The translations under genes and the position numbers were made by a program. From a virus (Duplodnaviria > Heunggongvirae > Uroviricota > Caudoviricetes), in the IMG/VR virus record IMGVR_UViG_2698536506_000009: 23,022 nucleotides of DNA. One strand, written 5' to 3'. Below the pieces are notes generated by a model, which did not search any database, was not told the DNA's origin, and saw nothing but the letters and a program-made list of their open reading frames with translations. Positions within the stretch are counted from its first letter, which is position 1. Each line of letters opens with the position of its first letter. Positions 1 through 8,455 of this stretch are shown here, piece after piece.

Positions 1-19
1 CTATTTGATAAATATTAAA

Positions 20-1315
20 TTAATTTTTCATTGCTTCGTTATGGGGCATGGTTGGGGCAAACTCGCTTAACTGTGTATTTAACAAAGCTACCTGTGCATT
101 ATTGTTTTCAGACATCCATTTTCCGTATACCTGAAATACCATTTGCGCATCTGCATGGCCCATCTGGTTTGCTATAAATGCCGGGTTAGCACCAGCTGTC
201 AGCGACCAGCAGGCATAAGTATGTCTCGACTGATATGATTTTCGATGGCGGAGTCCGGCACGTTTTATCGCTGCGTCCCACATCTGCCTTATTGAGTCAA
301 CGGTAAAATGGTCACCATAATTTTTTACTCTCGCTGACACTTCAGGTTGAAAAACAAAGGTGCATTTTTGTTTTTCTGTTCTGCCATACTCTCTGAGGTG
401 AACATCAATGATATGCTCTTTGCTCAGTCTCGTTAATGTCATCTGACTCCGGAGAGCGTCGATTGCTGGCTTAATAAGATGAATGACCCGATTGGTTCCC
501 GCCTGTGTTTTTGGTACCGTGAAACGGTCTTTTGCTAAATTTCTCCTGATCATCATTGTTCCATTTTTCAGATCTATGTCCTCCCATCCAAGTGCACACA
601 GCTCACCAGGGCGAACTCCAGTATAAACAGAAACACACCATAAATTTTTTGCTTGCTGATTTCTGCACGCATCGATAAGACGGATAAATTCTTCCCGCGA
701 AAGAGGATCCGGAATGGTTCTTGATTCCTTTAATGGCGAGATCCCCTTAAACGGATTATCTGCCAGGTAACCGTTATCAACACCAAACTGGAACACGGCG
801 TTAAGATTTGTCATGTAATTATTTACAGTTACAGCCGATCTCCCTGGTTGTGTAACAATATAGTTACTTTTGGGGATCTGGTATCCAGTCAGTAACTCTT
901 TACGAACCTCCAGTAATTTTTCTTTATTAATCGATGAGGCAAGATTTTTTTCACCGATTATGCTCAGGATATTTTTGATGACGGCACGGTATGTGTTGAG
1001 TGATGTTTTGGCGACTTCAGTTTCTTTCAGTGCCAGAAATTTTTCAGCCAGTTCTTTTATGGTTAAATCTTGTCGGGCCTCACCAAATTTTTCCAGATTG
1101 CGTGAGGAGGGAAACTGTTTTGCATAGTCGAAAACACCAGTTTTTATTGCGTAACAAACAGAGGAGCGTAGTTCACCTGCAACGCGCCTGTTTTTTGCTG
1201 TGTCAGGAACCCCCAGATTTTCCCTGACTCTTACGTCTTTATAAACAAACCAGATACGTAATTTCCCTCCATGGTTTTCCACGCCTGTCGGATATTTCAT
1301 TTCAACTTCTCTCAT
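20..1315 (-). CDS. int: Tyrosine integrase, lambda family (Rac IntR-like)
   Basis: 431-aa ORF whose C-terminal region carries ...RKSYQSRHTYACWSLTAGANP...QMGHA..., which I recognise as the catalytic region of lambda-family integrases. Start may be the second Met (1300). It sits at the prophage end beside an excisionase-like gene. Confidence 0.85.
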   Translation of the reverse strand: MREVEMKYPTGVENHGGKLRIWFVYKDVRVRENLGVPDTAKNRRVAGELRSSVCYAIKTGVFDYAKQFPSSRNLEKFGEARQDLTIKELAEKFLALKETEVAKTSLNTYRAVIKNILSIIGEKNLASSINKEKLLEVRKELLTGYQIPKSNYIVTQPGRSAVTVNNYMTNLNAVFQFGVDNGYLADNPFKGISPLKESRTIPDPLSREEFIRLIDACRNQQAKNLWCVSVYTGVRPGELCALGWEDIDLKNGTMMIRRNLAKDRFTVPKTQAGTNRVIHLIKPAIDALRSQMTLTRLSKEHIIDVHLREYGRTEKQKCTFVFQPEVSARVKNYGDHFTVDSIRQMWDAAIKRAGLRHRKSYQSRHTYACWSLTAGANPAFIANQMGHADAQMVFQVYGKWMSENNNAQVALLNTQLSEFAPTMPHNEAMKN

Positions 1316-1334
1316 TAGTTAGTGTGGCTTTTAG

Positions 1335-1586
1335 TCAAGTAAGATGACGTCTTGGTCTCGCTGATGCCTGGCGCTCAATCCAGCGATCAATTTCTTCCAG
1401 GTTGTAAAAGCATGGACTGTTATCCCATGGCATACCGTCATGAGCGACATGCTTATATTCCCTTTCTTCCATAAACGATTTTTCCCGGGCCTTTTTTAAC
1501 GTACCTTTTTTTATTCCTTTCAGCGCAATTAACTGCTCTTCGGATACCCATTTGCCGGGAGAGACAATCATGATTACTTCGCTCAT
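1335..1586 (-). CDS. xis: Excisionase-like small DNA-binding protein
   Basis: 83-aa basic ORF immediately upstream of and co-oriented with int, the usual xis position. The family call is from memory, not a search. Confidence 0.55.
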   Translation of the reverse strand: MSEVIMIVSPGKWVSEEQLIALKGIKKGTLKKAREKSFMEEREYKHVAHDGMPWDNSPCFYNLEEIDRWIERQASARPRRHLT

Positions 1587-1658
1587 CGATTTCTTTATCT
1601 CTTACATCAGACGAGCGCCGGTTGCAGAATACCAGTCACAACCGGCGACAGTTGAACA

Positions 1659-3680
1659 TTAAGAATCAGCCTGACTCGGGATCAGTTTTTGCCAGATAAC
1701 TGAAACGTATTTTGCCTGGTAACGGGCGTCATCAAGTGCATTATGGCGCTCACCTTCGAATGGAATAGCCGTTCTGGCATCGAAGTCTATGGCTTTCCCC
1801 AGCTCAACGATTGTGCGTACATCGCGATCGTTGTAGTAACGCCACGGGCAGGGGATCCCCTGCCGTTCGTATGAACGGCGCAAAATCGTGTTGTCGAAGT
1901 TGGCTCCATTTCCCCAAACCTGAACAAAAAATTCACCGGAGTTTTCGTCGATAAATTCTCGCAATTGTAACAGTGCATCATCTAACGGGATTTCATCGGT
2001 CATAATGGCAGATTGCGCTTCGCGTGATTGCTTAAGCCACCATTTAATGGTGTCCCGATCAATGACTCCGCCAGCAGTTTCCAGATCGATAGTCTTACTA
2101 AATTCCGGTCCCATATCTCCGGTTTGCGGATCGAAAAATATTGCACCTATTGAGATGATCGGGGCATCAGGATTTTTTCCCATGGTTTCAAGGTCGATCA
2201 TTAGATGGTCACACGTCCTGCTGGTGGATGTGATTTCGTGATGACCGTTCACCTTAATTGGGTGATCTGCCGTCTCGCCAGTTTCATTATCGCTATTGTG
2301 ATGCTGATTGCCGCCAGTGTTCTCCTTGTGTGGATGTTCAGCGCCTTCCATTTCCTCCGGATCATCTTCCTGAACTTCAACCTGATACTCTTCATCGAAT
2401 GTTTCTTGGTATGTTGCGTCGCCCATCACCGCGCCACAATCAGGGCAGTTGCCGCCGCCGGTCTGACCGCAGGCGGTGCAGACTTTTTCCACTTCCTGTT
2501 GCGCTACTGGTTCAGGCTGTTTCGTTTCTGGCTCGTTTTGTAACGCATTTGGACTGTTTTGTTCCGCTTTTTGGTAGTTCCGTTCCGATTCATGCTGGTT
2601 CTGGTTCACAGAATCGCGGGTCTGGAGCCCCTTAACCCATTTCGGATCATTCGGGTCACTAATCCCTTCAACAAATTCACCACGTGATGCAGCAAGCAAC
2701 TTATCGGCGTCAGGCTGGCTGATATTGGCTGCCTGCATAATTTTGTTTACTTCGTCAGCGGTAACTTTTATCGGCTCTGGTTGTTCTGAATCTTCAGCGG
2801 TATCTACATTTTGCGGTAAGCCCGTGTATGTGCCATTTTTTCGGGCAAAATATTCTTCTTTTGTGATTTCAGTGGCGCCAGCAGCCAGTGCCTTATCCAG
2901 ACCAGAGAGTTTGTTTGCGCGACCGTATTTTTCTCCGTCCTTATCTGCGAAGAGGAAATAGAACGGCCCCTCACGCTCTACAGATGGTTCAGCTTCCGGC
3001 GCGGTTTCATTTTTTGGGATATCAGATACCTCAGTTTCCACTGCATCAGTTTGTGTTTCTGATGACTGGAGAACATCAACAGTGCCCAGGTCTGTTTCTT
3101 CATTCTCAAACACGCCCTTTGTCGTCAGGTATTCGCAGATATATTTGTTCAGTGCTACGGGATCTTTGTGAATGTCGATCGGACGCTCACGGACAAGGCC
3201 AAAAATAGTTTGGCGGTCGTAGCGAAGGGCATCAGGCTGTTTGCGCATTGATGCCGAGATACGCTTCCAGTCTTCGCGGTCGTTGTCGATAACTTCTTTT
3301 TTTGCCCAGCGATGGATGCTGCCGTCAATGTTTCCGGCATCCACATCACTAGGCCAGAGAGCGTAGGCCAGTTCGTCATCCAGTGTTTTCCATGTCTGCT
3401 TGTATTCGCGATGAATGGCAGCAATGACCGGGCTGATTTTTCCTGTTGAATTTTCAGTGTACTGTTGATTGGCTCTGGCGCGGGCGAGATCAACAACAGA
3501 CGTGTATTTTCCGGTTTCCTTGCGTTCACCTTCGCGACGTTTTTTCCAGATGCGCATCTCTGCCTGAATTTCGGGCCATTTAGCACCAGGAATACATTTA
3601 TGCTTAACCCACCCAATGGCGTGCAACTTAAGCTCCGGATATTCGAAGTGGACGATGACGCAACACCTGAGGAAATTCAT
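1659..3680 (-). CDS. Multidomain putative 3'-5' exonuclease (DnaQ-like DEDDh C-terminal domain)
   Basis: 673-aa ORF. C-terminus has MIDLETMG, VWGNGANFDNTIL and HNALDDARYQA, consistent with DEDDh exonuclease motifs. The middle is an acidic low-complexity linker with a CxxC-x8-CxxC pair (CTACGQTGGGNCPDCG). The annotated start codon overlaps a plus-strand ATG (CATG at 3678-3681), so the true start may lie downstream, e.g. the Met at 3557. Confidence 0.7.
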   Translation of the reverse strand: MNFLRCCVIVHFEYPELKLHAIGWVKHKCIPGAKWPEIQAEMRIWKKRREGERKETGKYTSVVDLARARANQQYTENSTGKISPVIAAIHREYKQTWKTLDDELAYALWPSDVDAGNIDGSIHRWAKKEVIDNDREDWKRISASMRKQPDALRYDRQTIFGLVRERPIDIHKDPVALNKYICEYLTTKGVFENEETDLGTVDVLQSSETQTDAVETEVSDIPKNETAPEAEPSVEREGPFYFLFADKDGEKYGRANKLSGLDKALAAGATEITKEEYFARKNGTYTGLPQNVDTAEDSEQPEPIKVTADEVNKIMQAANISQPDADKLLAASRGEFVEGISDPNDPKWVKGLQTRDSVNQNQHESERNYQKAEQNSPNALQNEPETKQPEPVAQQEVEKVCTACGQTGGGNCPDCGAVMGDATYQETFDEEYQVEVQEDDPEEMEGAEHPHKENTGGNQHHNSDNETGETADHPIKVNGHHEITSTSRTCDHLMIDLETMGKNPDAPIISIGAIFFDPQTGDMGPEFSKTIDLETAGGVIDRDTIKWWLKQSREAQSAIMTDEIPLDDALLQLREFIDENSGEFFVQVWGNGANFDNTILRRSYERQGIPCPWRYYNDRDVRTIVELGKAIDFDARTAIPFEGERHNALDDARYQAKYVSVIWQKLIPSQADS

Positions 3681-3741
3681 GACGGAGCATAAGAAATTTT
3701 CTTTAACTACTGCAATTACTCATACCACGAAATAAAAGACG

Positions 3742-3933
3742 ATGAGGAAGAACAAAGTGGCTGATTTTTGTTCAGCTAAATATAACATCAGTTTTGAAGA
3801 GCGGGATGAACTATTAATGGACTATGGTGAGTTACGCGGTGGAAGTGCTGCTGATGTCGAATCCTAGCGTGATGACTATGAAGCGGGAAAAACTCCGGTC
3901 GAAGCATATTGTGATGAGTGGGGCGATGAATGA
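3742..3933 (+). pseudogene. Short ORF interrupted by an in-frame TAG (41 codons, TAG at 3865-3867, 21 more codons)
   Basis: Purine-rich sense-like codon usage on the plus strand. The reading frame continues in phase across the TAG to a TGA that overlaps the next ORF start (ATGA). No convincing SD. Function unknown. Confidence 0.3.
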
Positions 3934-4217
3934 GCGAGATTAATTATCAGGAAGGGCATGAAACGGCGGGGCAAGCAAAACCAGTGGCATGGCGATATCG
4001 CTACGTGAAAAAAGGCGTTACGGACTTTCAGGGGAAGTAGTGGTCTGGTGACTGGAAATATGTACCGAAAAAAGAGGATTGTAACGACAGGCCGAACTAT
4101 CAAATTCAGGCCTTATTCACTGCCTCACCAGTCCCAGTTACATCAGAAGAACTGGTTAAAGCTGTGCACTTTTATGAACAACTAAAACGCGAAAATCCAC
4201 CAACATCCGGCAACTAG
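3930..4217 (+). pseudogene. Short ORF interrupted by an in-frame TAG (36 codons, TAG at 4038-4040, 58 more codons)
   Basis: Translation MSEINYQEGHETAGQAKPVAWRYRYVKKGVTDFQGK, stop, WSGDWKYVPKKEDCNDRPNYQIQALFTASPVPVTSEELVKAVHFYEQLKRENPPTSGN. Protein-like composition on both sides of the TAG; the antisense frame is compositionally implausible. Confidence 0.35.
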
Positions 4218-4471
4218 ATTAATGGATTAACTATGTCGGTTAAACGACCAGCCAACTGAAAAAGCGGAAACCTGATTACAGGTTGCCAGATAAGGCAATG
4301 AGCTACCTGGCGCGGAACGGACTGATAAGTATGGGGAATGTTTTACGATGAACCTTTAGACTAAAGAGTTTGTAACGCTATGTAAGTGATTTTTTCTGGT
4401 TTAGATATTTATATGTCCGGCCAAATTGAGGTGTGTTTAAATGTAATTGCACATTGATTGTAGGAGGAATA

Positions 4472-4651
4472 ATGAAAAACGCATTGCAGTTTTTGTTTGT
4501 TGCGTTCTGGTTGTTCGCATCATGTATGCCCATCATCTTCACAGCAAGGTATATGGAAAAAGTTGATGTTTTGATATTAATATTTGGATATATAAATGCC
4601 CTTTTTTTAGGGGTGTTCATGGCGGTCATGTGCATTGAATACTGGCGGTAA
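4472..4651 (+). CDS. Small hydrophobic protein, two predicted transmembrane helices (59 aa)
   Basis: AGGAGG at 4462-4467, 4 nt before the ATG. Sequence MKNALQFLFVAFWLFASCMPIIFTARYMEKVDVLILIFGYINALFLGVFMAVMCIEYWR has two hydrophobic segments separated by a short polar loop. Confidence 0.5.
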   Translation: MKNALQFLFVAFWLFASCMPIIFTARYMEKVDVLILIFGYINALFLGVFMAVMCIEYWR

Positions 4652-4899
4652 ATACAGCGAACTCCATTGGTTTAGTTGGATATTTACTGTGCTGGACAAA
4701 AACGGTTTGCGGGGAAATCTTAGTTAAGTAGAATGACTGCGGGTGCTTGAGGCTATCTGCCTCGGGCATGGACACCAACGGCAGATAGAGAAAAGCCCCA
4801 GTTAACATTACGCGTCCTGCAAGACGCTTAACATTAATCTGAGGCCAATTTCATGCTAGACACATGTAGGTTAGCCTCTTACGTGCCGAAAGGCACGGA

Positions 4900-6450
4900 G
4901 AAGCAGGCTATTGTTAACACCAAGCTGTAATGTCCCCTTTGAACCATTCTAAAATGTCCCCAGACAATTCTCTGGGGGATTTTTCATGATCAAAGAGACT
5001 GTTACGATGAGTCATAAGGAACTCCACCGACTTCAGATTATTCAGGAACAAGCTGCGGCACGCATTGGCATTTCTATTCGGCAGGTTAAACGTCTGGTGC
5101 AACGGTATAGAAATGAAGGGCCTTCTGGTCTGGTTTCCCACCGACGTGGAAAGCGTCCTAATAATTCCTTTTCTACTGAATTCAGAGCAACAGTAATTTC
5201 ACTCCTCAAAGGCCGTTACGCTGATTTTGGACCTACGTTTGCGTGCGAAAAATTGCGCGAGATACACGGTTTATCTTTATCCGTTGAAACTCTCAGAAAG
5301 TGGATGATAGAAGAGGGGTTATGGCGTGAACGCCGTCGTAAAATTGCCCGTATATATCAACGCCGCATGCGACGACCATCTTACGGTGAACTGATCCAGA
5401 TTGATGGCTCACCTCATGACTGGTTTGAAAATCGAGGCCCCAGATGTACACTGATCGTTTTCATTGATGATGCCACCAGTGCGTTGATGGCGTTGCGTTT
5501 TGTGCCTGCTGAAACAACCCGGGCTTACATGGAAACCCTCCGGGGTTACCTTAATGATCATGGCGTACCGCTCGCTCTCTACTCTGATAGACACAGTATA
5601 TTCAGGGTAAATAACCCAGAGCGGGAAGGTGAGCTGACCCAGTTCACTCGTGCGATAAAGACACTGGGCATCGAGCCAATCCATGCCAACAGCCCGCAGG
5701 CAAAAGGGCGGGTAGAGCGCGCCAATCAGACACTACAGGACAGGCTGGTCAAAGAAATGCGGCTTCAGAATATCAGTGATATTGAAACAGCAAATGCATG
5801 GTTGCCGACCTTTATTGAAGCCTATAACAACCGGTTCGCTACGTCGCCTCGTACTACTGATAATGCTCATCTTGATGTGCACCATTCTGAAGAGGAACTG
5901 GGTTATATCTTCAGCCTACAGGCGAAGCGCGTTCTGTCTAAAAATCTCACTTTCCAGTACAAAAGCAGTGCGTTTCAGGTACGCAGTGAGGGCCGGGGAT
6001 ATCGACTTAGGCATTCGGTTGTTACTGTATGCGAGAACTTTGACGGTGAAATTAACGTTCTGTATGACGGGAAAGCGCTGGGCTGGGAAAAGTATGTTGA
6101 TGGCCCGGAGCCTATACCACTGGATGATGAAAAGAGTGTCCATGAACGAGTGGATAATGCCCGTATTGATTTACGCTCAAAATACTATGTTAAACCTAAA
6201 GCTGACCATCCCTGGCTTACGCGCCGAACGCAAAGTCATCAGCAAGTTAAGCCCCCGAAGTTACCTAAAAAGAAGCCTGATCCCGATAAAAAAGATTGAA
6301 ACCAAGATCGATTCGGTTGAGTGCATATCCATTCATAGGGTAGATTCTTAAGTCGCGTTTCTGGTGTTCATTTTCGGGTGGTTTGTTACTTGTTTTACCG
6401 GGGATATGCCAGAAACGCGCTGAGTCAGTCTGGGCGGTGCGCGTAATGAG
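4900..6450 (+). mobile_element. Insertion sequence carrying the rve transposase (boundaries approximate)
   Basis: Single transposase ORF flanked by non-coding sequence. I could not identify terminal inverted repeats or a target duplication by eye; only an 8-bp AGGCTATT / AATAGCCT pair (about 4903 and 6462), which could be chance. Confidence 0.3.
4986..6299 (+). CDS. DDE transposase with retroviral-integrase-like (rve) core and N-terminal HTH
   Basis: 437-aa ORF with an N-terminal HTH-like region (RIGISIRQVKRLVQRY), candidate catalytic D in IQIDGS, D in LYSDRHSIF, and the rve hallmark NSPQAKGRVERANQTLQ. Family (IS481-like or ISNCY-like) not resolved. Confidence 0.85.
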   Translation: MIKETVTMSHKELHRLQIIQEQAAARIGISIRQVKRLVQRYRNEGPSGLVSHRRGKRPNNSFSTEFRATVISLLKGRYADFGPTFACEKLREIHGLSLSVETLRKWMIEEGLWRERRRKIARIYQRRMRRPSYGELIQIDGSPHDWFENRGPRCTLIVFIDDATSALMALRFVPAETTRAYMETLRGYLNDHGVPLALYSDRHSIFRVNNPEREGELTQFTRAIKTLGIEPIHANSPQAKGRVERANQTLQDRLVKEMRLQNISDIETANAWLPTFIEAYNNRFATSPRTTDNAHLDVHHSEEELGYIFSLQAKRVLSKNLTFQYKSSAFQVRSEGRGYRLRHSVVTVCENFDGEINVLYDGKALGWEKYVDGPEPIPLDDEKSVHERVDNARIDLRSKYYVKPKADHPWLTRRTQSHQQVKPPKLPKKKPDPDKKD

Positions 6451-6735
6451 GCGTTATGGTAAATAGCCTATGCTAATGTCCGCTAAGAGCAAGAAGCGGA
6501 AGTTGGCAGTTTTGTGGACTGTCCCCACAAAAGTGACTACAGAAATAGTTGCAATTCATAATTGATCATGGGTTGTCAGTTAAACTCGTGGCGATTTAAA
6601 TAGACTAATTGGGAGTGCGTCCATTACTTATATCTTGTAATGTTAACTATCAGAAATGATACAAAGATAATATGTCTTTAAAGAAAAGGCTGATGGCGAA
6701 AAGTGGCCCGATGAGGGCCACAATACGGCTGTCAC

Positions 6736-7068
6736 TTAGACGTAAATATCAATGGTGCCAGCGGTATTTGTATCGTCTTTTTTCTCTTCTTTTTTATCAG
6801 GCTGAACTGTCGCGTCTTCATTCTTTTTCTCTGCCTGCTGCCTTAACAACTGCTCCAGTTGAGCCCAGAGGCTTTCAATTTGCTTCTGTACCAATGCAGC
6901 CATTTCTTTTTTCTGCTGTGTCGTCATCCCCTCTTCCGATGAGATTTTCCCAAGCTTTTCAGTCAGCACCTGAATTTGTCTTGTGATTTTGGCTATTTCT
7001 GATGTTCCTTCCGGGGCGGAGTTGTTTGAAATAACGGTTGAGGTATTTCCCTGAATTGTGACAGACAT
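6736..7068 (-). CDS. flxA: FlxA-like protein
   Basis: 110-aa ORF MSVTIQGNTSTVISNN...TAGTIDIYV matching my recollection of FlxA in length and sequence, preceded by a near-consensus sigma-28 promoter. Confidence 0.8.
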   Translation of the reverse strand: MSVTIQGNTSTVISNNSAPEGTSEIAKITRQIQVLTEKLGKISSEEGMTTQQKKEMAALVQKQIESLWAQLEQLLRQQAEKKNEDATVQPDKKEEKKDDTNTAGTIDIYV

Positions 7069-7091
7069 AGATTTCTCCTTTTAAAAAAGCA

Positions 7092-7118
7092 CTATCGGCA
7101 TGCACAAAAAAATCTTTA
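7092..7118 (-). promoter_or_regulatory. Sigma-28 (FliA) type promoter for flxA
   Basis: Minus strand reads TAAAGATT, 11 nt, GCCGATAG against consensus TAAAGTTT-N11-GCCGATAA. The -10 complement is at 7092-7099 and the -35 at 7111-7118. GGAG sits 6 nt before the flxA ATG. Confidence 0.6.
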
Positions 7119-7270
7119 ATCGTATTTCTTGTGTCATTAATTGTTTGATGTTCAGATTGTTTTCCTCGCGGGCTGGCGCGCCTCAGAAAGTAAAGCTTGT
7201 TGACAGGGGTAAACGTTCGGCAATAATTTTCTGCCGCATGCGGGTGTTGCATAAAACGTGTTACGTTCCT

Positions 7271-7576
7271 TTATCGACAGGTCAGGTCACCGCTCACCCG
7301 CCGACGAGAAAGCAACACTGACATGCTAAAGCAAAAAATAGATGAATAAGTTGAGTTGTGCATATGTAGCCTGACCGTCACAAAGTATATGGTGTCTGTA
7401 CCAGTAAGATGATGGCCGGACTCTTTAAAAACGAGCTGACCTGCACAATACAGGATGGACTTAGCAATGGCTGCTCCTGGCACAAAGCGGACAGTGATCA
7501 CCGTTCTTACGACTACTTTCTGACTTCCTTCGTGACTTGCCCTAAGCATGTTGTAGTGCGATACTTGTAATGACAT
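7271..7576 (-). CDS. ydfV: Hypothetical protein (YdfV-like)
   Basis: 101-aa ORF between flxA and relB, divergent from relB, matching the K-12 Qin position and length of ydfV as I recall them. Confidence 0.55.
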   Translation of the reverse strand: MSLQVSHYNMLRASHEGSQKVVVRTVITVRFVPGAAIAKSILYCAGQLVFKESGHHLTGTDTIYFVTVRLHMHNSTYSSIFCFSMSVLLSRRRVSGDLTCR

Positions 7577-7589
7577 TTGTAATTACAAG
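7564..7589 (+). promoter_or_regulatory. relBE operator/promoter palindrome
   Basis: CTTGTAATGACATTTGTAATTACAAG lies immediately upstream of relB, with repeated TTGTAAT hexads and inverted arms CTTGTAAT / ATTACAAG, consistent with RelB-RelE autoregulation. Confidence 0.5.
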
Positions 7590-7600
7590 AGGTGTAAGAC

Positions 7601-7840
7601 ATGGGTAGCATTAACCTGCGTATTGACGATGAACTTAAAGCGCGTTCTTACGCCGCGCTTGAAAAAATGGGTGTAACTCCTTCTGAAGCGCTTCGTCTCA
7701 TGCTCGAGTATATCGCTGACAATGAACGCTTGCCGTTCAAACAGACACTCCTGAGTGATGAAGATGCTGAACTTGTGGAGATAGTGAAAGAACGGCTTCG
7801 TAATCCTAAGCCAGTACGTGTGACGCTGGATGAACTCTGA
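7601..7840 (+). CDS. relB: RelB antitoxin
   Basis: 79-aa ORF MGSINLRIDDELKARSYA...RVTLDEL. Its stop overlaps the relE start (ATGA). Confidence 0.9.
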   Translation: MGSINLRIDDELKARSYAALEKMGVTPSEALRLMLEYIADNERLPFKQTLLSDEDAELVEIVKERLRNPKPVRVTLDEL

Positions 7841-8127
7841 TGGCGTATTTTCTGGATTTTGACGAGCGGGCACTAAAGGAATGGCGAAAGCTGGGCTCGA
7901 CGGTACGTGAACAGTTGAAAAAGAAGCTGGTTGAAGTACTTGAGTCACCCCGGATTGAAGCAAACAAGCTCCGTGGTATGCCTGATTGTTACAAGATTAA
8001 GCTCCGGTCTTCAGGCTATCGCCTTGTATACCAGGTTATAGACGAGAAAGTTGTCGTTTTCGTGATTTCTGTTGGGAAAAGAGAACGCTCGGAAGTATAT
8101 AGCGAGGCGGTCAAACGCATTCTCTGA
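7840..8127 (+). CDS. relE: RelE mRNA interferase toxin
   Basis: 95-aa ORF MAYFLDFDERALKEWRKLG...SEAVKRIL, translationally coupled to relB. Confidence 0.9.
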   Translation: MAYFLDFDERALKEWRKLGSTVREQLKKKLVEVLESPRIEANKLRGMPDCYKIKLRSSGYRLVYQVIDEKVVVFVISVGKRERSEVYSEAVKRIL

Positions 8128-8198
8128 ACCAAAGCATGACATCTCTGTTTCGCACCGAAGGTGACACTTCTGCTTTGCGTTGACAGGAGAAGCAGGCT

Positions 8199-8354
8199 AT
8201 GAAGCAGCAAAAGGCGATGTTAATCGCCCTGATCGTCATCTGTTTAACCGTCATAGTGACGGCACTGGTAACGAGGAAAGACCTCTGCGAGGTACGAATC
8301 CGAACCGGCCAGACGGAGGTCGCTGTCTTCACAGCTTACGAACCTGAGGAGTAA
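8199..8354 (+). CDS. hokD: Hok-family small membrane toxin (HokD/RelF)
   Basis: 51-codon ORF, too short for the supplied track: MKQQKAMLIALIVICLTVIVTALVTRKDLCEVRIRTGQTEVAVFTAYEPEE. One TM helix and conserved Hok C-terminus, directly downstream of relE. Confidence 0.85.
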   Translation: MKQQKAMLIALIVICLTVIVTALVTRKDLCEVRIRTGQTEVAVFTAYEPEE

Positions 8355-8422
8355 GAGACCCGGCGGGGGAGAAATCCCTCGCCACCTCTGATGTGGCAGG
8401 CATCCTCAACGCACCCGCACTT

Positions 8423-8455
8423 AACCCGCTTCGGCGGGTTTTTGTTTTTATTTTC
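8423..8455 (+). terminator. Rho-independent terminator after relBE-hokD
   Basis: AACCCGC, loop TTCG, GCGGGTT followed by TTTTTGTTTTTATTTT. Confidence 0.6.

What the first reader, a model, noticed from the sequence alone, without database searches (positions are those of the whole stretch)
3681..6735. The dicA/dicC-dicF-dicB segment expected here is absent
From memory of K-12 Qin, the interval between flxA and the integrase should hold dicC, dicA, ydfABC, the DicF sRNA, dicB and ydfD. I found no DicF-like sequence and minus-strand translation upstream of the exonuclease is not protein-like. Instead there is an IS and a 1.3 kb segment of unrelated small plus-strand ORFs, so the immunity and division-inhibitor module has been replaced.
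Basis: partly seen in the sequence, partly recalled or inferred. Interest (0 to 1): 0.5.

Follow-up and report, generated by a model that had tools for sequence, protein, structure and literature searches.

The report
Deleted dic module in Qin prophage
The cell-division-inhibitor (dic) module of this E. coli Qin-type cryptic prophage was removed by one clean 5.5-kb deletion, not replaced. The deletion is joined at a TA dinucleotide at a breakpoint reused by many other strains, and that pattern is the only unusual thing here.

Summary
The window has no dicF, dicB, dicA, dicC, ydfA/B/C or ydfD: Rfam finds nothing even at E<=1, and tblastn/blastn give best E 0.46.

Against the intact relative, phage PhiR42_1, the window carries a single 5,536-bp deletion. 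It runs from inside the exonuclease gene to inside a DUF7167 pseudogene, with the joint at window 3640-3641.

The IS-type transposase gene and the 1.3-kb stretch are native Qin DNA. They are present in PhiR42_1 and in 511 of 5,426 complete E. coli genomes. K-12 lost them through its own 4.8-kb deletion.

This exact joint occurs in none of the 5,426 genomes, but other dic-less Qin variants are common; one type is in 90 genomes.

The unexpected part is the joint itself. Its left end (…CTCCGGATA^) is shared with at least seven other independent deletions. At least 38 of 63 IS-free deletion joints surveyed in related prophages cross over at a TA present in both parents. They share no other homology, and the TA sits in a weak GGNTAYC context. 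No known enzyme I could test fits this.

As a gene-content finding it is ordinary. The TA rule deserves follow-up.

The parts
20..1315 (-). Intact Qin-type tyrosine integrase (a pseudogene in K-12). attL lies just left of the window start.
   Evidence: ORF. Annotated 'site-specific integrase' WP_000876958.1 in identical loci. att core TTATGGATTTC.
1335..1586 (-). Excisionase.
1659..3641 (-). 3' 1,983 bp of the exonuclease gene (C-terminal Rv2179c-like 3'-5' exonuclease domain). The first 163 codons of the 823-codon gene are deleted.
   Evidence: Pfam. The full gene is 2,472 bp in L001 and PhiR42_1. Alignment ends at window 3641.
3622..3641 (+). Left half of recurrent deletion site A (CAACTTAAGCTCCGGATA^). 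It survives the deletion.
   Evidence: The same left end occurs in CFS3292, 52F4, GmM062, L102, L141/L146 and L144, each with a different right partner.
3640..3641 (.). Deletion joint: the TA shared by both parents. 5,536 bp (PhiR42_1 4687-10222) are missing.
   Evidence: Joint absent from 5,426 E. coli genomes, the GTDB representatives and JGI metagenomes.
3642..3764 (+). 3' remnant of a DUF7167 pseudogene. Its antisense strand supplies the new ATG (3680) and 13 N-terminal codons of the truncated exonuclease ORF.
   Evidence: RefSeq annotation mapped from L001 19902-20084. Sequence.
3930..4351 (+). Frameshifted hypothetical gene (pseudogene).
   Evidence: L001 20250-20671, 'frameshifted; internal stop'.
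4741..4912 (+). 5' part of a hok/sok-type toxin-antitoxin locus (sok RNA model). Its similarity to other phages ends where the IS-related DNA begins.
   Evidence: Rfam RF01794, 104 bits, E 5e-23. Phage matches annotated hok/mok end at query base 2248, which is window 4911.
4986..6299 (+). ISNCY-family transposase ORF (437 aa). K-12 keeps only its last 49 codons, as ydfW. No terminal inverted repeats were found, so the element's limits are undefined.
   Evidence: Pfam HTH_32/HTH_29/rve_3. Annotation. K-12 homology resumes at window 6115. Inverted-repeat search negative.
6736..7068 (-). flxA, the right-hand landmark of the interval.
   Evidence: Pfam FlxA. Annotation.
18184..18185 (.). Second private deletion joint of this prophage (terminase large subunit to side tail fibre; 20,588 bp missing). 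It is also a TA, at a right-hand site reused by K-12 and four other variants.
   Evidence: Joint absent from 5,426 genomes.

Best explanation
The window is a Qin-type cryptic lambdoid prophage that lost its immunity and division-inhibitor region in one 5,536-bp deletion.

Shown:
- The deletion removes the first 163 codons of the exonuclease gene, ydfD, dicB, dicF, ydfC/B/A, dicA, dicC, the cII/YdaT-like gene, the replication gene O, lygF (DUF977), a small methyltransferase and the 5' end of a DUF7167 pseudogene.
- The two ends are joined at a TA that both parental sites carry. They share no other homology.
- The DNA to the right (pseudogenes, a hok/sok remnant, the ISNCY transposase gene) is the ancestral continuation of the prophage.
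- The left end is a site reused by many independent deletions. Most IS-free deletions in this prophage family cross over at a TA in a GGNTAYC-like context. I found only deletions, no inversions or duplications.

Inferred:
- The deletion was made by a break-and-join process that cuts at or within TA at preferred sites and reseals the outer ends. A 2-nt palindromic overlap would explain why TA alone suffices.
- Because the left half-site CCGGATA survives each event, it can fire again, which gives nested deletions with one fixed end.
- The window may therefore descend from a shorter deletion such as the CFS3292 type.

The enzyme is unknown. Selection against the toxic dicB/ydfD genes probably helps such deletions persist, but it cannot fix breakpoints to the nucleotide.
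For: Deletion, not replacement:
- Window 1-3641 matches PhiR42_1 1046-4686 and window 3640-18185 matches 10221-24766, both at >=99.97% identity.
- The gene content of the gap comes from the PhiR42_1 and K-12 annotations.
- The right-hand DNA occurs in one piece at 100% identity in many genomes; 511 have >=80% coverage.

Fixed left end:
- Site A has seven other right partners, at PhiR42_1 5728, 9306, 9313, 10415, 10601 and 20330, and in 52F4.

TA rule:
- 31 mapped events all have TA in both parents. Mean flanking identity is 2.2/6 on the left and 1.4/6 on the right, close to the 1.5/6 expected by chance.
- Pooled automated tally: 38 TA joints, 25 other, 13 IS insertions.
- TA is 4.4% of dinucleotides, and a random identical 2-bp pair is TA 3% of the time.
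- Site context: G at -2 in 25/38 sites (p=8e-6), Y at +1 in 32/38 (p=8e-4), C at +2 in 18/38 (p=0.005).
- Internal control: only 1 of the 13 IS target duplications found by the same pipeline contains TA.
- The rule also holds in sets anchored on racR and on the terminase gene.
- No inversions and no duplications.
Against: - The enzyme is unidentified, and the site motif is weak (about 1-2 bits beyond TA).
- 25 of 63 IS-free joints in the automated tally lack TA, so the rule is a strong bias, not a law. At least 3 of those 25 are mis-scored TA events.
- Five of the eight IMG/VR pattern scans and one metagenome scan were aimed at sites A, B and S, which inflates their partner counts. Reuse of other sites (PhiR42_1 7896 x4, 6776 x3, a terminase-gene site x3-4) was seen without targeting.
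- Only prophage DNA was sampled, so I cannot say whether this is a prophage property or a general E. coli property.
- The order of events (one step, or via a CFS3292-like intermediate) cannot be decided.
Confidence: 0.8

Rival explanations
1. Replacement: an IS brought in foreign DNA that displaced the dic module.
For: A transposase ORF lies in the interval. K-12 has no counterpart for window 3642-6114.
Against: The IS gene and the 1.3 kb lie in the same order and at 99.97% identity in PhiR42_1, downstream of an intact dic module, and likewise in 52F4 and CFSAN061772. The joint is 1.3 kb away from the IS gene and carries no IS end. K-12's lack of this DNA is its own TA-joined deletion.
Confidence: 0.02
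2. Ordinary microhomology-mediated deletion (replication slippage or alternative end-joining) with no site-specific component. On this view the TA and the shared end are coincidence or ascertainment.
For: The microhomology is short, as in RecA-independent deletions. Two events use longer repeats: CCGGATACA in 52F4 and CTCCGG.TAC in CFS3292. Only deletions are seen, as slippage predicts. About a third of the joints surveyed are not TA.
Against: Annealing of 2 nt cannot explain why the 2 nt are TA in every 2-bp case (3% expected by chance). It also cannot explain reuse of the same nucleotide positions by up to 8-12 partners. Homology beside the TA is at chance level. IS target duplications scored by the same pipeline show no TA bias.
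Confidence: 0.12
3. A serine recombinase resident in these prophages (PinQ here, at 19812-20402; PinR in Rac) recombines pseudo-sites that have a central TA.
For: A 2-bp crossover is the hallmark of serine recombinases. pinQ is intact (Resolvase + HTH_7) and is retained by every variant seen. Site A is roughly dyad-symmetric (TTAAG..GGA TA CATGG..TTAAC). The tail-fibre site S lies upstream of pin.
Against: From memory, Hin/Gin/Cin/Pin sites have an AAACC-NN-GGTTT core with AA- or GA-type centres, and these enzymes make inversions, not deletions. No such core occurs at the sites. No inverted copy of S lies near pinQ. No inversions were found. No extended shared half-site is enriched.
Confidence: 0.08
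4. Illegitimate recombination by a type IIA topoisomerase (gyrase or Topo IV) through subunit exchange at strong cleavage sites.
For: The published gyrase consensus has GGTAT^NNNN^ATACC at its centre (PMC6379681 supplement). The shared type IIA determinants are -4G/-2A/-1T (PMC10117906). This resembles GGNTAY. The sites lie in GC-richer flanks than average TA sites.
Against: A 4-bp stagger predicts joints at the cut after TAY or 4 nt further on, and both daughter types. Observed joints always keep the base before TA from the left parent and the base after TA from the right parent. The predicted right arm (A/T at +5/+6) is not seen.
Confidence: 0.05
5. The joints are assembly or construction artefacts of this particular sequence.
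For: Both private joints of the window (3640/1 and 18184/5) are absent from 5,426 complete genomes and from two other collections.
Against: Both obey the TA rule and use sites (A and S) that independent natural genomes from many laboratories also use. An artefact would not do that. The flanks are otherwise 99.97% identical to natural loci.
Confidence: 0.02

Closest known systems
Cryptic prophage Qin (Kim) of E. coli K-12 MG1655
   Same: Same insertion site (rspB / ydfJ') and the same att core. The same flxA-ydfV-relBE-hokD-rem-ydfU-ydfT-cspF/B-lysis-cspI-gnsB-ydfO-tfaQ-pinQ backbone at about 99.9% identity.
   Different: K-12 keeps dicC-dicA-ydfABC-dicF-dicB-ydfD-ydfE' but has lost most of the transposase gene, the hok/sok remnant, lygF, the methyltransferase and O. 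Its integrase and exonuclease genes are broken by an IS2 remnant. The window keeps intact int and xis and the opposite set of genes.
Escherichia phage PhiR42_1 (PV340562.1, from ECOR13)
   Same: Collinear with the window at >=99.97% identity on both sides of both joints. It serves as the undeleted reference.
   Different: It is 48.7 kb with a complete early region and complete head and tail genes. The window lacks 5.5 kb and 20.6 kb of it.
CFS3292-type Qin derivative (90 complete genomes)
   Same: Also lacks the whole dic module. Identical left breakpoint in the exonuclease gene.
   Different: Its right end lies 916 bp further left (in lygF), so it keeps the lygF stump and the methyltransferase. 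Its joint microhomology is TAC, within CTCCGG.TAC.
TA-targeting cut-and-paste systems (IS630/Tc1-mariner insertion at TA; precise TA-bounded excision of ciliate IESs). From general knowledge.
   Same: A DNA segment bounded by two TAs is removed, leaving one TA. Little other sequence is needed.
   Different: No transposon ends, no terminal inverted repeats in the lost segments, and no such transposase in the window. The flanking preference here (R-TA-Y with GG/CC) is not the CTAG of IS630. Membership was not established.
Fixed-end deletion hot spots in E. coli (replication-arrest sites such as Ter; Int-promoted lambda deletions from att; gyrase-mediated illegitimate recombination). From general knowledge, not checked in papers here.
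   Same: One endpoint recurs at a defined nucleotide while the other varies.
   Different: No Ter or att sequence occurs at the sites. Both flanks of a site can be the retained one. The crossover dinucleotide is constant.

Membership tests
Qin-type cryptic lambdoid prophage | Integrated between rspB and the 5'-truncated ydfJ, with an 11-bp att core | tested here: met
   Window 21739-23022 is ydfJ'. The left end matches the DNA next to rspB in L001 and K-12. Core TTATGGATTTC.
Qin-type cryptic lambdoid prophage | Qin backbone genes (flxA, ydfV, relBE, hokD, rem, ydfU, Q, cspB/F/I, lysis genes, tfaQ, pinQ) | tested here: met
   99.86-99.98% identity to K-12 and CFSAN061772 over window 6115-17635 and 18183-23022. 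Annotation.
Qin-type cryptic lambdoid prophage | dicA/dicC immunity region with the dicBF operon | tested here: not met
   Absent. This is a deletion derivative, so membership of the prophage lineage stands but the module does not.
DicF sRNA (Rfam RF00039) | Match to the covariance model | tested here: not met
   No match at gathering score in the whole window, nor at E<=1 in 3000-9000. blastn-short finds only 9-11-nt chance matches.
IS-mediated rearrangement | An IS end or a target-site duplication at the joint | tested here: not met
   The joint is exonuclease-gene DNA fused directly to DUF7167 DNA. The nearest transposase ORF starts 1,345 bp away. True IS insertions in related loci show 3-6-bp duplications, only one of which contains TA.
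Conservative site-specific recombination with a 2-bp overlap (serine-recombinase type) | Constant crossover dinucleotide present in both partners | tested here: met
   TA in all 31 mapped events, with the crossover confined to it.
Conservative site-specific recombination with a 2-bp overlap (serine-recombinase type) | Extended (about 12-bp) dyad-symmetric half-sites shared by the sites | tested here: not met
   Only G-2/G-3, Y+1 and C+2 are enriched. No k-mer survives correction for multiple tests.
Conservative site-specific recombination with a 2-bp overlap (serine-recombinase type) | Reciprocal product (excised circle), or inversions between inverted sites | tested here: inconclusive
   No inversions in about 430 loci. 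Excised circles cannot be seen in assemblies.
Type IIA topoisomerase-mediated illegitimate recombination | Joints at cuts staggered by 4 bp, with -4G/-2A/-1T and +5A/+6T/+8C | tested here: not met
   The crossover lies inside TA and only one joint type is seen. The right-arm preferences are absent.
E. coli topoisomerase I cleavage site | Cleavage at T^A with an obligatory C at -4 in an AT-rich context (PMC9352719) | tested here: not met
   Position -4 relative to T^A is G or C without preference on either strand, and the flanks are GC-rich.

The most novel reading that the evidence does not exclude
Decay of lambdoid prophages in E. coli may be driven largely by an undescribed TA-specific break-and-join activity. 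It would prefer GGNTAYC-like sites, need no homology between partners, produce only deletions, and reuse hot spots such as CTCCGGATA^C in the exonuclease gene. A surviving half-site could then fire repeatedly, whittling the prophage from fixed points. The enzyme could be host-encoded or phage-encoded; the Orf-HNH fusion YdfU and the Pin recombinases are the only local candidates.
Probability: 0.4. Interest if true: 0.75.

Novelty: new member of a known kind. Interest (0 to 1): 0.45.

Why it matters
As gene content, this is one more decayed Qin variant. The strain lacks DicB, DicF and YdfD, which are toxic when expressed, and DicA, which also regulates host genes. Phenotypes attributed to Qin in K-12 should therefore not be assumed for it. 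K-12 is also a poor template for what Qin 'should' contain.

The wider point is mechanistic. Prophage domestication is usually described as random deletion filtered by selection. Here the breakpoints are not random to the nucleotide: TA joints, a weak shared context, and sites reused across unrelated strains. If an enzyme is responsible, prophage decay would be partly programmed and experimentally tractable. The rule would also help to reconstruct the order of deletions in prophage phylogenies.

Tried and rejected
- I searched for the exact joint in 5,426 complete E. coli genomes, the GTDB species representatives and JGI metagenomes and found none. The source strain remains unidentified.
- Integrase-mediated secondary-site recombination: the att core (GAAT[T]TATGGATTTC) and its putative core-type arms do not resemble the sites.
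- Pin-site hypothesis for the tail-fibre site S: no inverted partner near pinQ.
- Terminal inverted repeats of the ISNCY element: none found, so its ends are undefined.
- A TTAA motif 8-12 bp from the TA looked striking in sites A, B, 6776 and 7896, but it is not enriched overall (16% vs 23% background).
- Truncated host flank genes (rspA, rspB) in two strains turned out to be IS insertions, not deletions.
- Literature searches for a TA rule in prophage deletions, for Qin deletion hot spots, and on Rpn nucleases and YdfU/DUF968 found nothing that explains the pattern.
- Gyrase, Topo IV and Topo I motifs were read from papers and do not fit.
- Searches for inversions and duplications with the same joints found none.
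Full report
**What the window is.**
The 23-kb window is a Qin-type cryptic lambdoid prophage of E. coli. Its left end (integrase 20-1315, excisionase 1335-1586, both on the minus strand) abuts the rspB side of the insertion site. Its right end (21739-23022) is the 5'-truncated ydfJ gene. From flxA (6736-7068) rightward it is 99.86-99.98% identical to K-12 Qin and to the same locus in other strains. The attachment core is TTATGGATTTC.

**Checking the observation.**
The dic module is absent.
- Rfam finds four RNAs in the window (IS009, two cspA-type elements, a sok-type element) but no DicF.
- A permissive Rfam search of 3000-9000 (E<=1) again finds none.
- tblastn with the eight K-12 proteins YdfX, DicC, DicA, YdfA, YdfB, YdfC, DicB and YdfD, and a short-word blastn with dicF, give only chance matches.
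- K-12 bases 19360-22567 of locus L004 (ydfX through the 5' part of ydfE) have no counterpart in the window.
- The interval does contain a 437-aa transposase ORF (4986-6299; HTH domains plus rve_3). RefSeq annotates it as 'ISNCY family transposase' plus ydfW.
- A 1.3-kb stretch of broken small ORFs precedes it.

**Why 'replaced' is wrong.**
A phage record from strain ECOR13, PhiR42_1 (48.7 kb), carries the complete arrangement. In order it holds int, xis, exonuclease, ydfD, dicB, dicF, ydfC/B/A, cI(dicA), cro(dicC), cII, O, lygF(DUF977), a methyltransferase, the DUF7167 pseudogene, a hok/sok remnant, the ISNCY gene, flxA and so on.
- Window 1-3641 equals PhiR42_1 1046-4686, and window 3640-18185 equals 10221-24766, both at >=99.97% identity.
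- The window therefore differs by a single 5,536-bp deletion, and the 'IS and unrelated ORFs' are the ancestral right-hand neighbours of the lost genes.
- That DNA (3681-6735) occurs in one piece at 100% identity in many genomes, and at >=80% coverage in 511 of 5,426.
- K-12 lacks window 3642-6114 because of its own, different deletion (PhiR42_1 7897-12695). This turned the cII-like gene into 'ydfX' and the transposase gene into 'ydfW'.

**How common the arrangement is.**
| Feature | Complete genomes (of 5,426) |
|---|---|
| Window's exact joint | 0 (also absent from GTDB representatives and JGI metagenomes) |
| Undeleted exonuclease site, in any prophage | 3,790 |
| dicF-to-dicC block, >=80% covered | 725 |
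| CFS3292-type dic-less joint | 90 |
| 52F4-type joint | 1 |

The literature agrees that Qin content varies widely. Qin sizes range from 11 to 97 kb in 189 strains (PMC6379469). DicF was found in 17 of 27 genomes (PMC5069750). Loss of the module is therefore ordinary; this particular joint is private.

**The joint.**
The left parent reads …AACTTAAGCTCCGGATA|CATGG and the right parent …GAGGATGTA|TTCGAAG. The window reads …CTCCGGATATTCGAAG. The only shared bases are TA. The truncated exonuclease ORF acquires an ATG and 13 codons from the antisense strand of the DUF7167 remnant.

**The unexpected regularity.**
The same left end, to the nucleotide, is used by deletions in CFS3292, 52F4 and GmM062 and by four further variants from IMG/VR and metagenomes. 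Each has a different right partner ending in TA.
- A second site, between dicF and dicB (…AACGCCGGATA^C), is an endpoint of about twelve different deletions and can keep either flank.
- The window's second private deletion runs from the terminase gene to the tail-fibre gene (20,588 bp; joint at 18184/5) and is absent from all 5,426 genomes. It ends at a tail-fibre site (…GGTCGGGTA^A) that K-12 and four other variants also use, each with a different left partner.
- In all 31 events for which both parents could be mapped on PhiR42_1, both parents carry TA at the crossover. Identity beside the TA is at chance level (2.2/6 left, 1.4/6 right).
- A pooled automated comparison of about 430 loci gave 76 junction classes. 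Of these, 13 were IS insertions, of whose target duplications only one contains TA. Another 38 had TA in the exact microhomology. The remaining 25 were 'other', at least three of which are mis-scored TA events.
- TA is 4.4% of dinucleotides in this DNA, and a random identical 2-bp pair is TA 3% of the time.
- The sites share a weak context: G at -2 in 25/38 (p=8e-6), G at -3, a pyrimidine at +1 in 32/38, and C at +2 in 18/38.
- The bias is also seen in loci anchored on racR (2 of 3 deletions) and on the terminase small-subunit gene (8 new TA joints against about 6 others).
- No inversions or duplications with such joints were found.

**Mechanism.**
What is shown: a single deletion joined at TA; a fixed, reused left end; and a family-wide TA bias without partner homology.

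What I infer: a break-and-join process that cuts at or within TA at preferred sites and reseals the outer ends. A 2-nt palindromic overlap would make any two sites compatible. Loss of the middle fragment would explain why only deletions are seen. The left half-site CCGGATA survives each event and can act again, which explains nested deletions with one fixed end.

The tests I could make against known enzymes all failed.
- **Type IIA topoisomerases.** The consensus is GGTAT^NNNN^ATACC with determinants -4G/-2A/-1T (PMC6379681 supplement and PMC10117906). This predicts joints at cuts staggered by 4 bp, not inside TA.
- **Topoisomerase I.** It cuts T^A but needs a C at -4 in AT-rich DNA (PMC9352719), which is not seen here.
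- **The prophage integrase.** Its core is unrelated.
- **Pin-type invertases.** They have different sites (from memory) and make inversions.
- **YdfU (9130-10218).** It is DUF968 with weak, sub-threshold similarity to an HNH-nuclease model. [quoted passage not shown] It is a local candidate nuclease with no evidence for or against it.

Plain microhomology-driven slippage remains possible for the minority of joints with longer repeats. It does not explain the constancy of TA or the site reuse.

**Caveats.**
- Several scans were aimed at three sites, so their partner counts are inflated.
- Distinct joints were counted, not events on a phylogeny.
- Only prophage DNA was sampled.
- The motif is weak.
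- About a third of the joints do not follow the rule.

**Verdict.**
The finding as written is a correct observation with a partly wrong interpretation. In gene-content terms it is an ordinary new member of the known family of Qin deletion derivatives. Its junction led to a non-random, apparently undescribed pattern of prophage deletions that merits a proper census and a simple genetic test.

Noticed in passing
window 18184-18185 (context 17627-19139): A second private deletion (20,588 bp, terminase large subunit to side tail fibre) removes all head and tail genes. Its TA joint uses a tail-fibre site shared with K-12 and four other variants that have different left ends. The joint is absent from 5,426 genomes.
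   Followed up: yes
PhiR42_1 (L011) 5728; K-12 L004 21526-21541, between dicF and dicB: A second hot spot, AACGCCGGATA^C, shares CCGGATAC with the exonuclease-gene site. It is an endpoint of about 12 different deletions and can keep either flank. The two sites bracket exactly the toxic genes dicB and ydfD.
   Followed up: yes
window 4741-4912 and 8199-8354: Two hok/sok-type loci lie in one prophage. The upstream one is cut off where the ISNCY-related DNA starts. In six IMG/VR loci the DNA between the two copies (PhiR42_1 11476-14766) is missing, apparently through recombination between them.
   Followed up: partly
window 3642-3680, minus strand: The truncated exonuclease ORF gains a new ATG and 13 codons from antisense pseudogene DNA. 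Whether the 673-aa protein, which keeps its 3'-5' exonuclease domain, is made is unknown.
   Followed up: no
window 9130-10218: YdfU is DUF968 with weak, sub-threshold similarity to an HNH-nuclease model and to P1 Ref-type RecA-dependent nuclease. DUF968 figures in a paper on phage Orf-family recombinases, some of which are fused to an HNH domain. It sits where lambdoid phages carry their junction resolvase.
   Followed up: partly
PhiR42_1 (L011) about 10197-10204, just inside the DNA deleted from the window: A perfect Chi sequence (GCTGGTGG) lies about 15 bp left of the window's right breakpoint in the undeleted parent. This may be coincidence.
   Followed up: no
K-12 locus L004 19175-19637 (ydfW, ydfX): The K-12 'genes' ydfW and ydfX are fragments created by K-12's own TA-joined deletion. 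ydfW is the last 49 codons of the ISNCY transposase; ydfX is the 5' part of a cII/YdaT-like gene.
   Followed up: yes
window 20-1586: Integrase and excisionase are intact here (K-12 intQ is a pseudogene) although the repressor region is gone. The element might still excise, but it has no immunity or replication genes.
   Followed up: no
window 8363-8444: A weak isrK-like match (25 bits, E 0.025, below the gathering score) lies just downstream of hokD.
   Followed up: no
PV340562.1 ends (L011 3-1027 and L012 about 27,888-28,668): The PhiR42_1 record repeats about 780 bp at both ends: window 20722-21502 matches both. This looks like a circular-permutation overlap in the deposit, not a biological repeat.
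   Followed up: no
terminase large-subunit gene of related loci (GGATGAACTGA TA CCGGG; L313, L360, L367, L420): Another TA site reused by three or four different deletions, found without targeting.
   Followed up: partly
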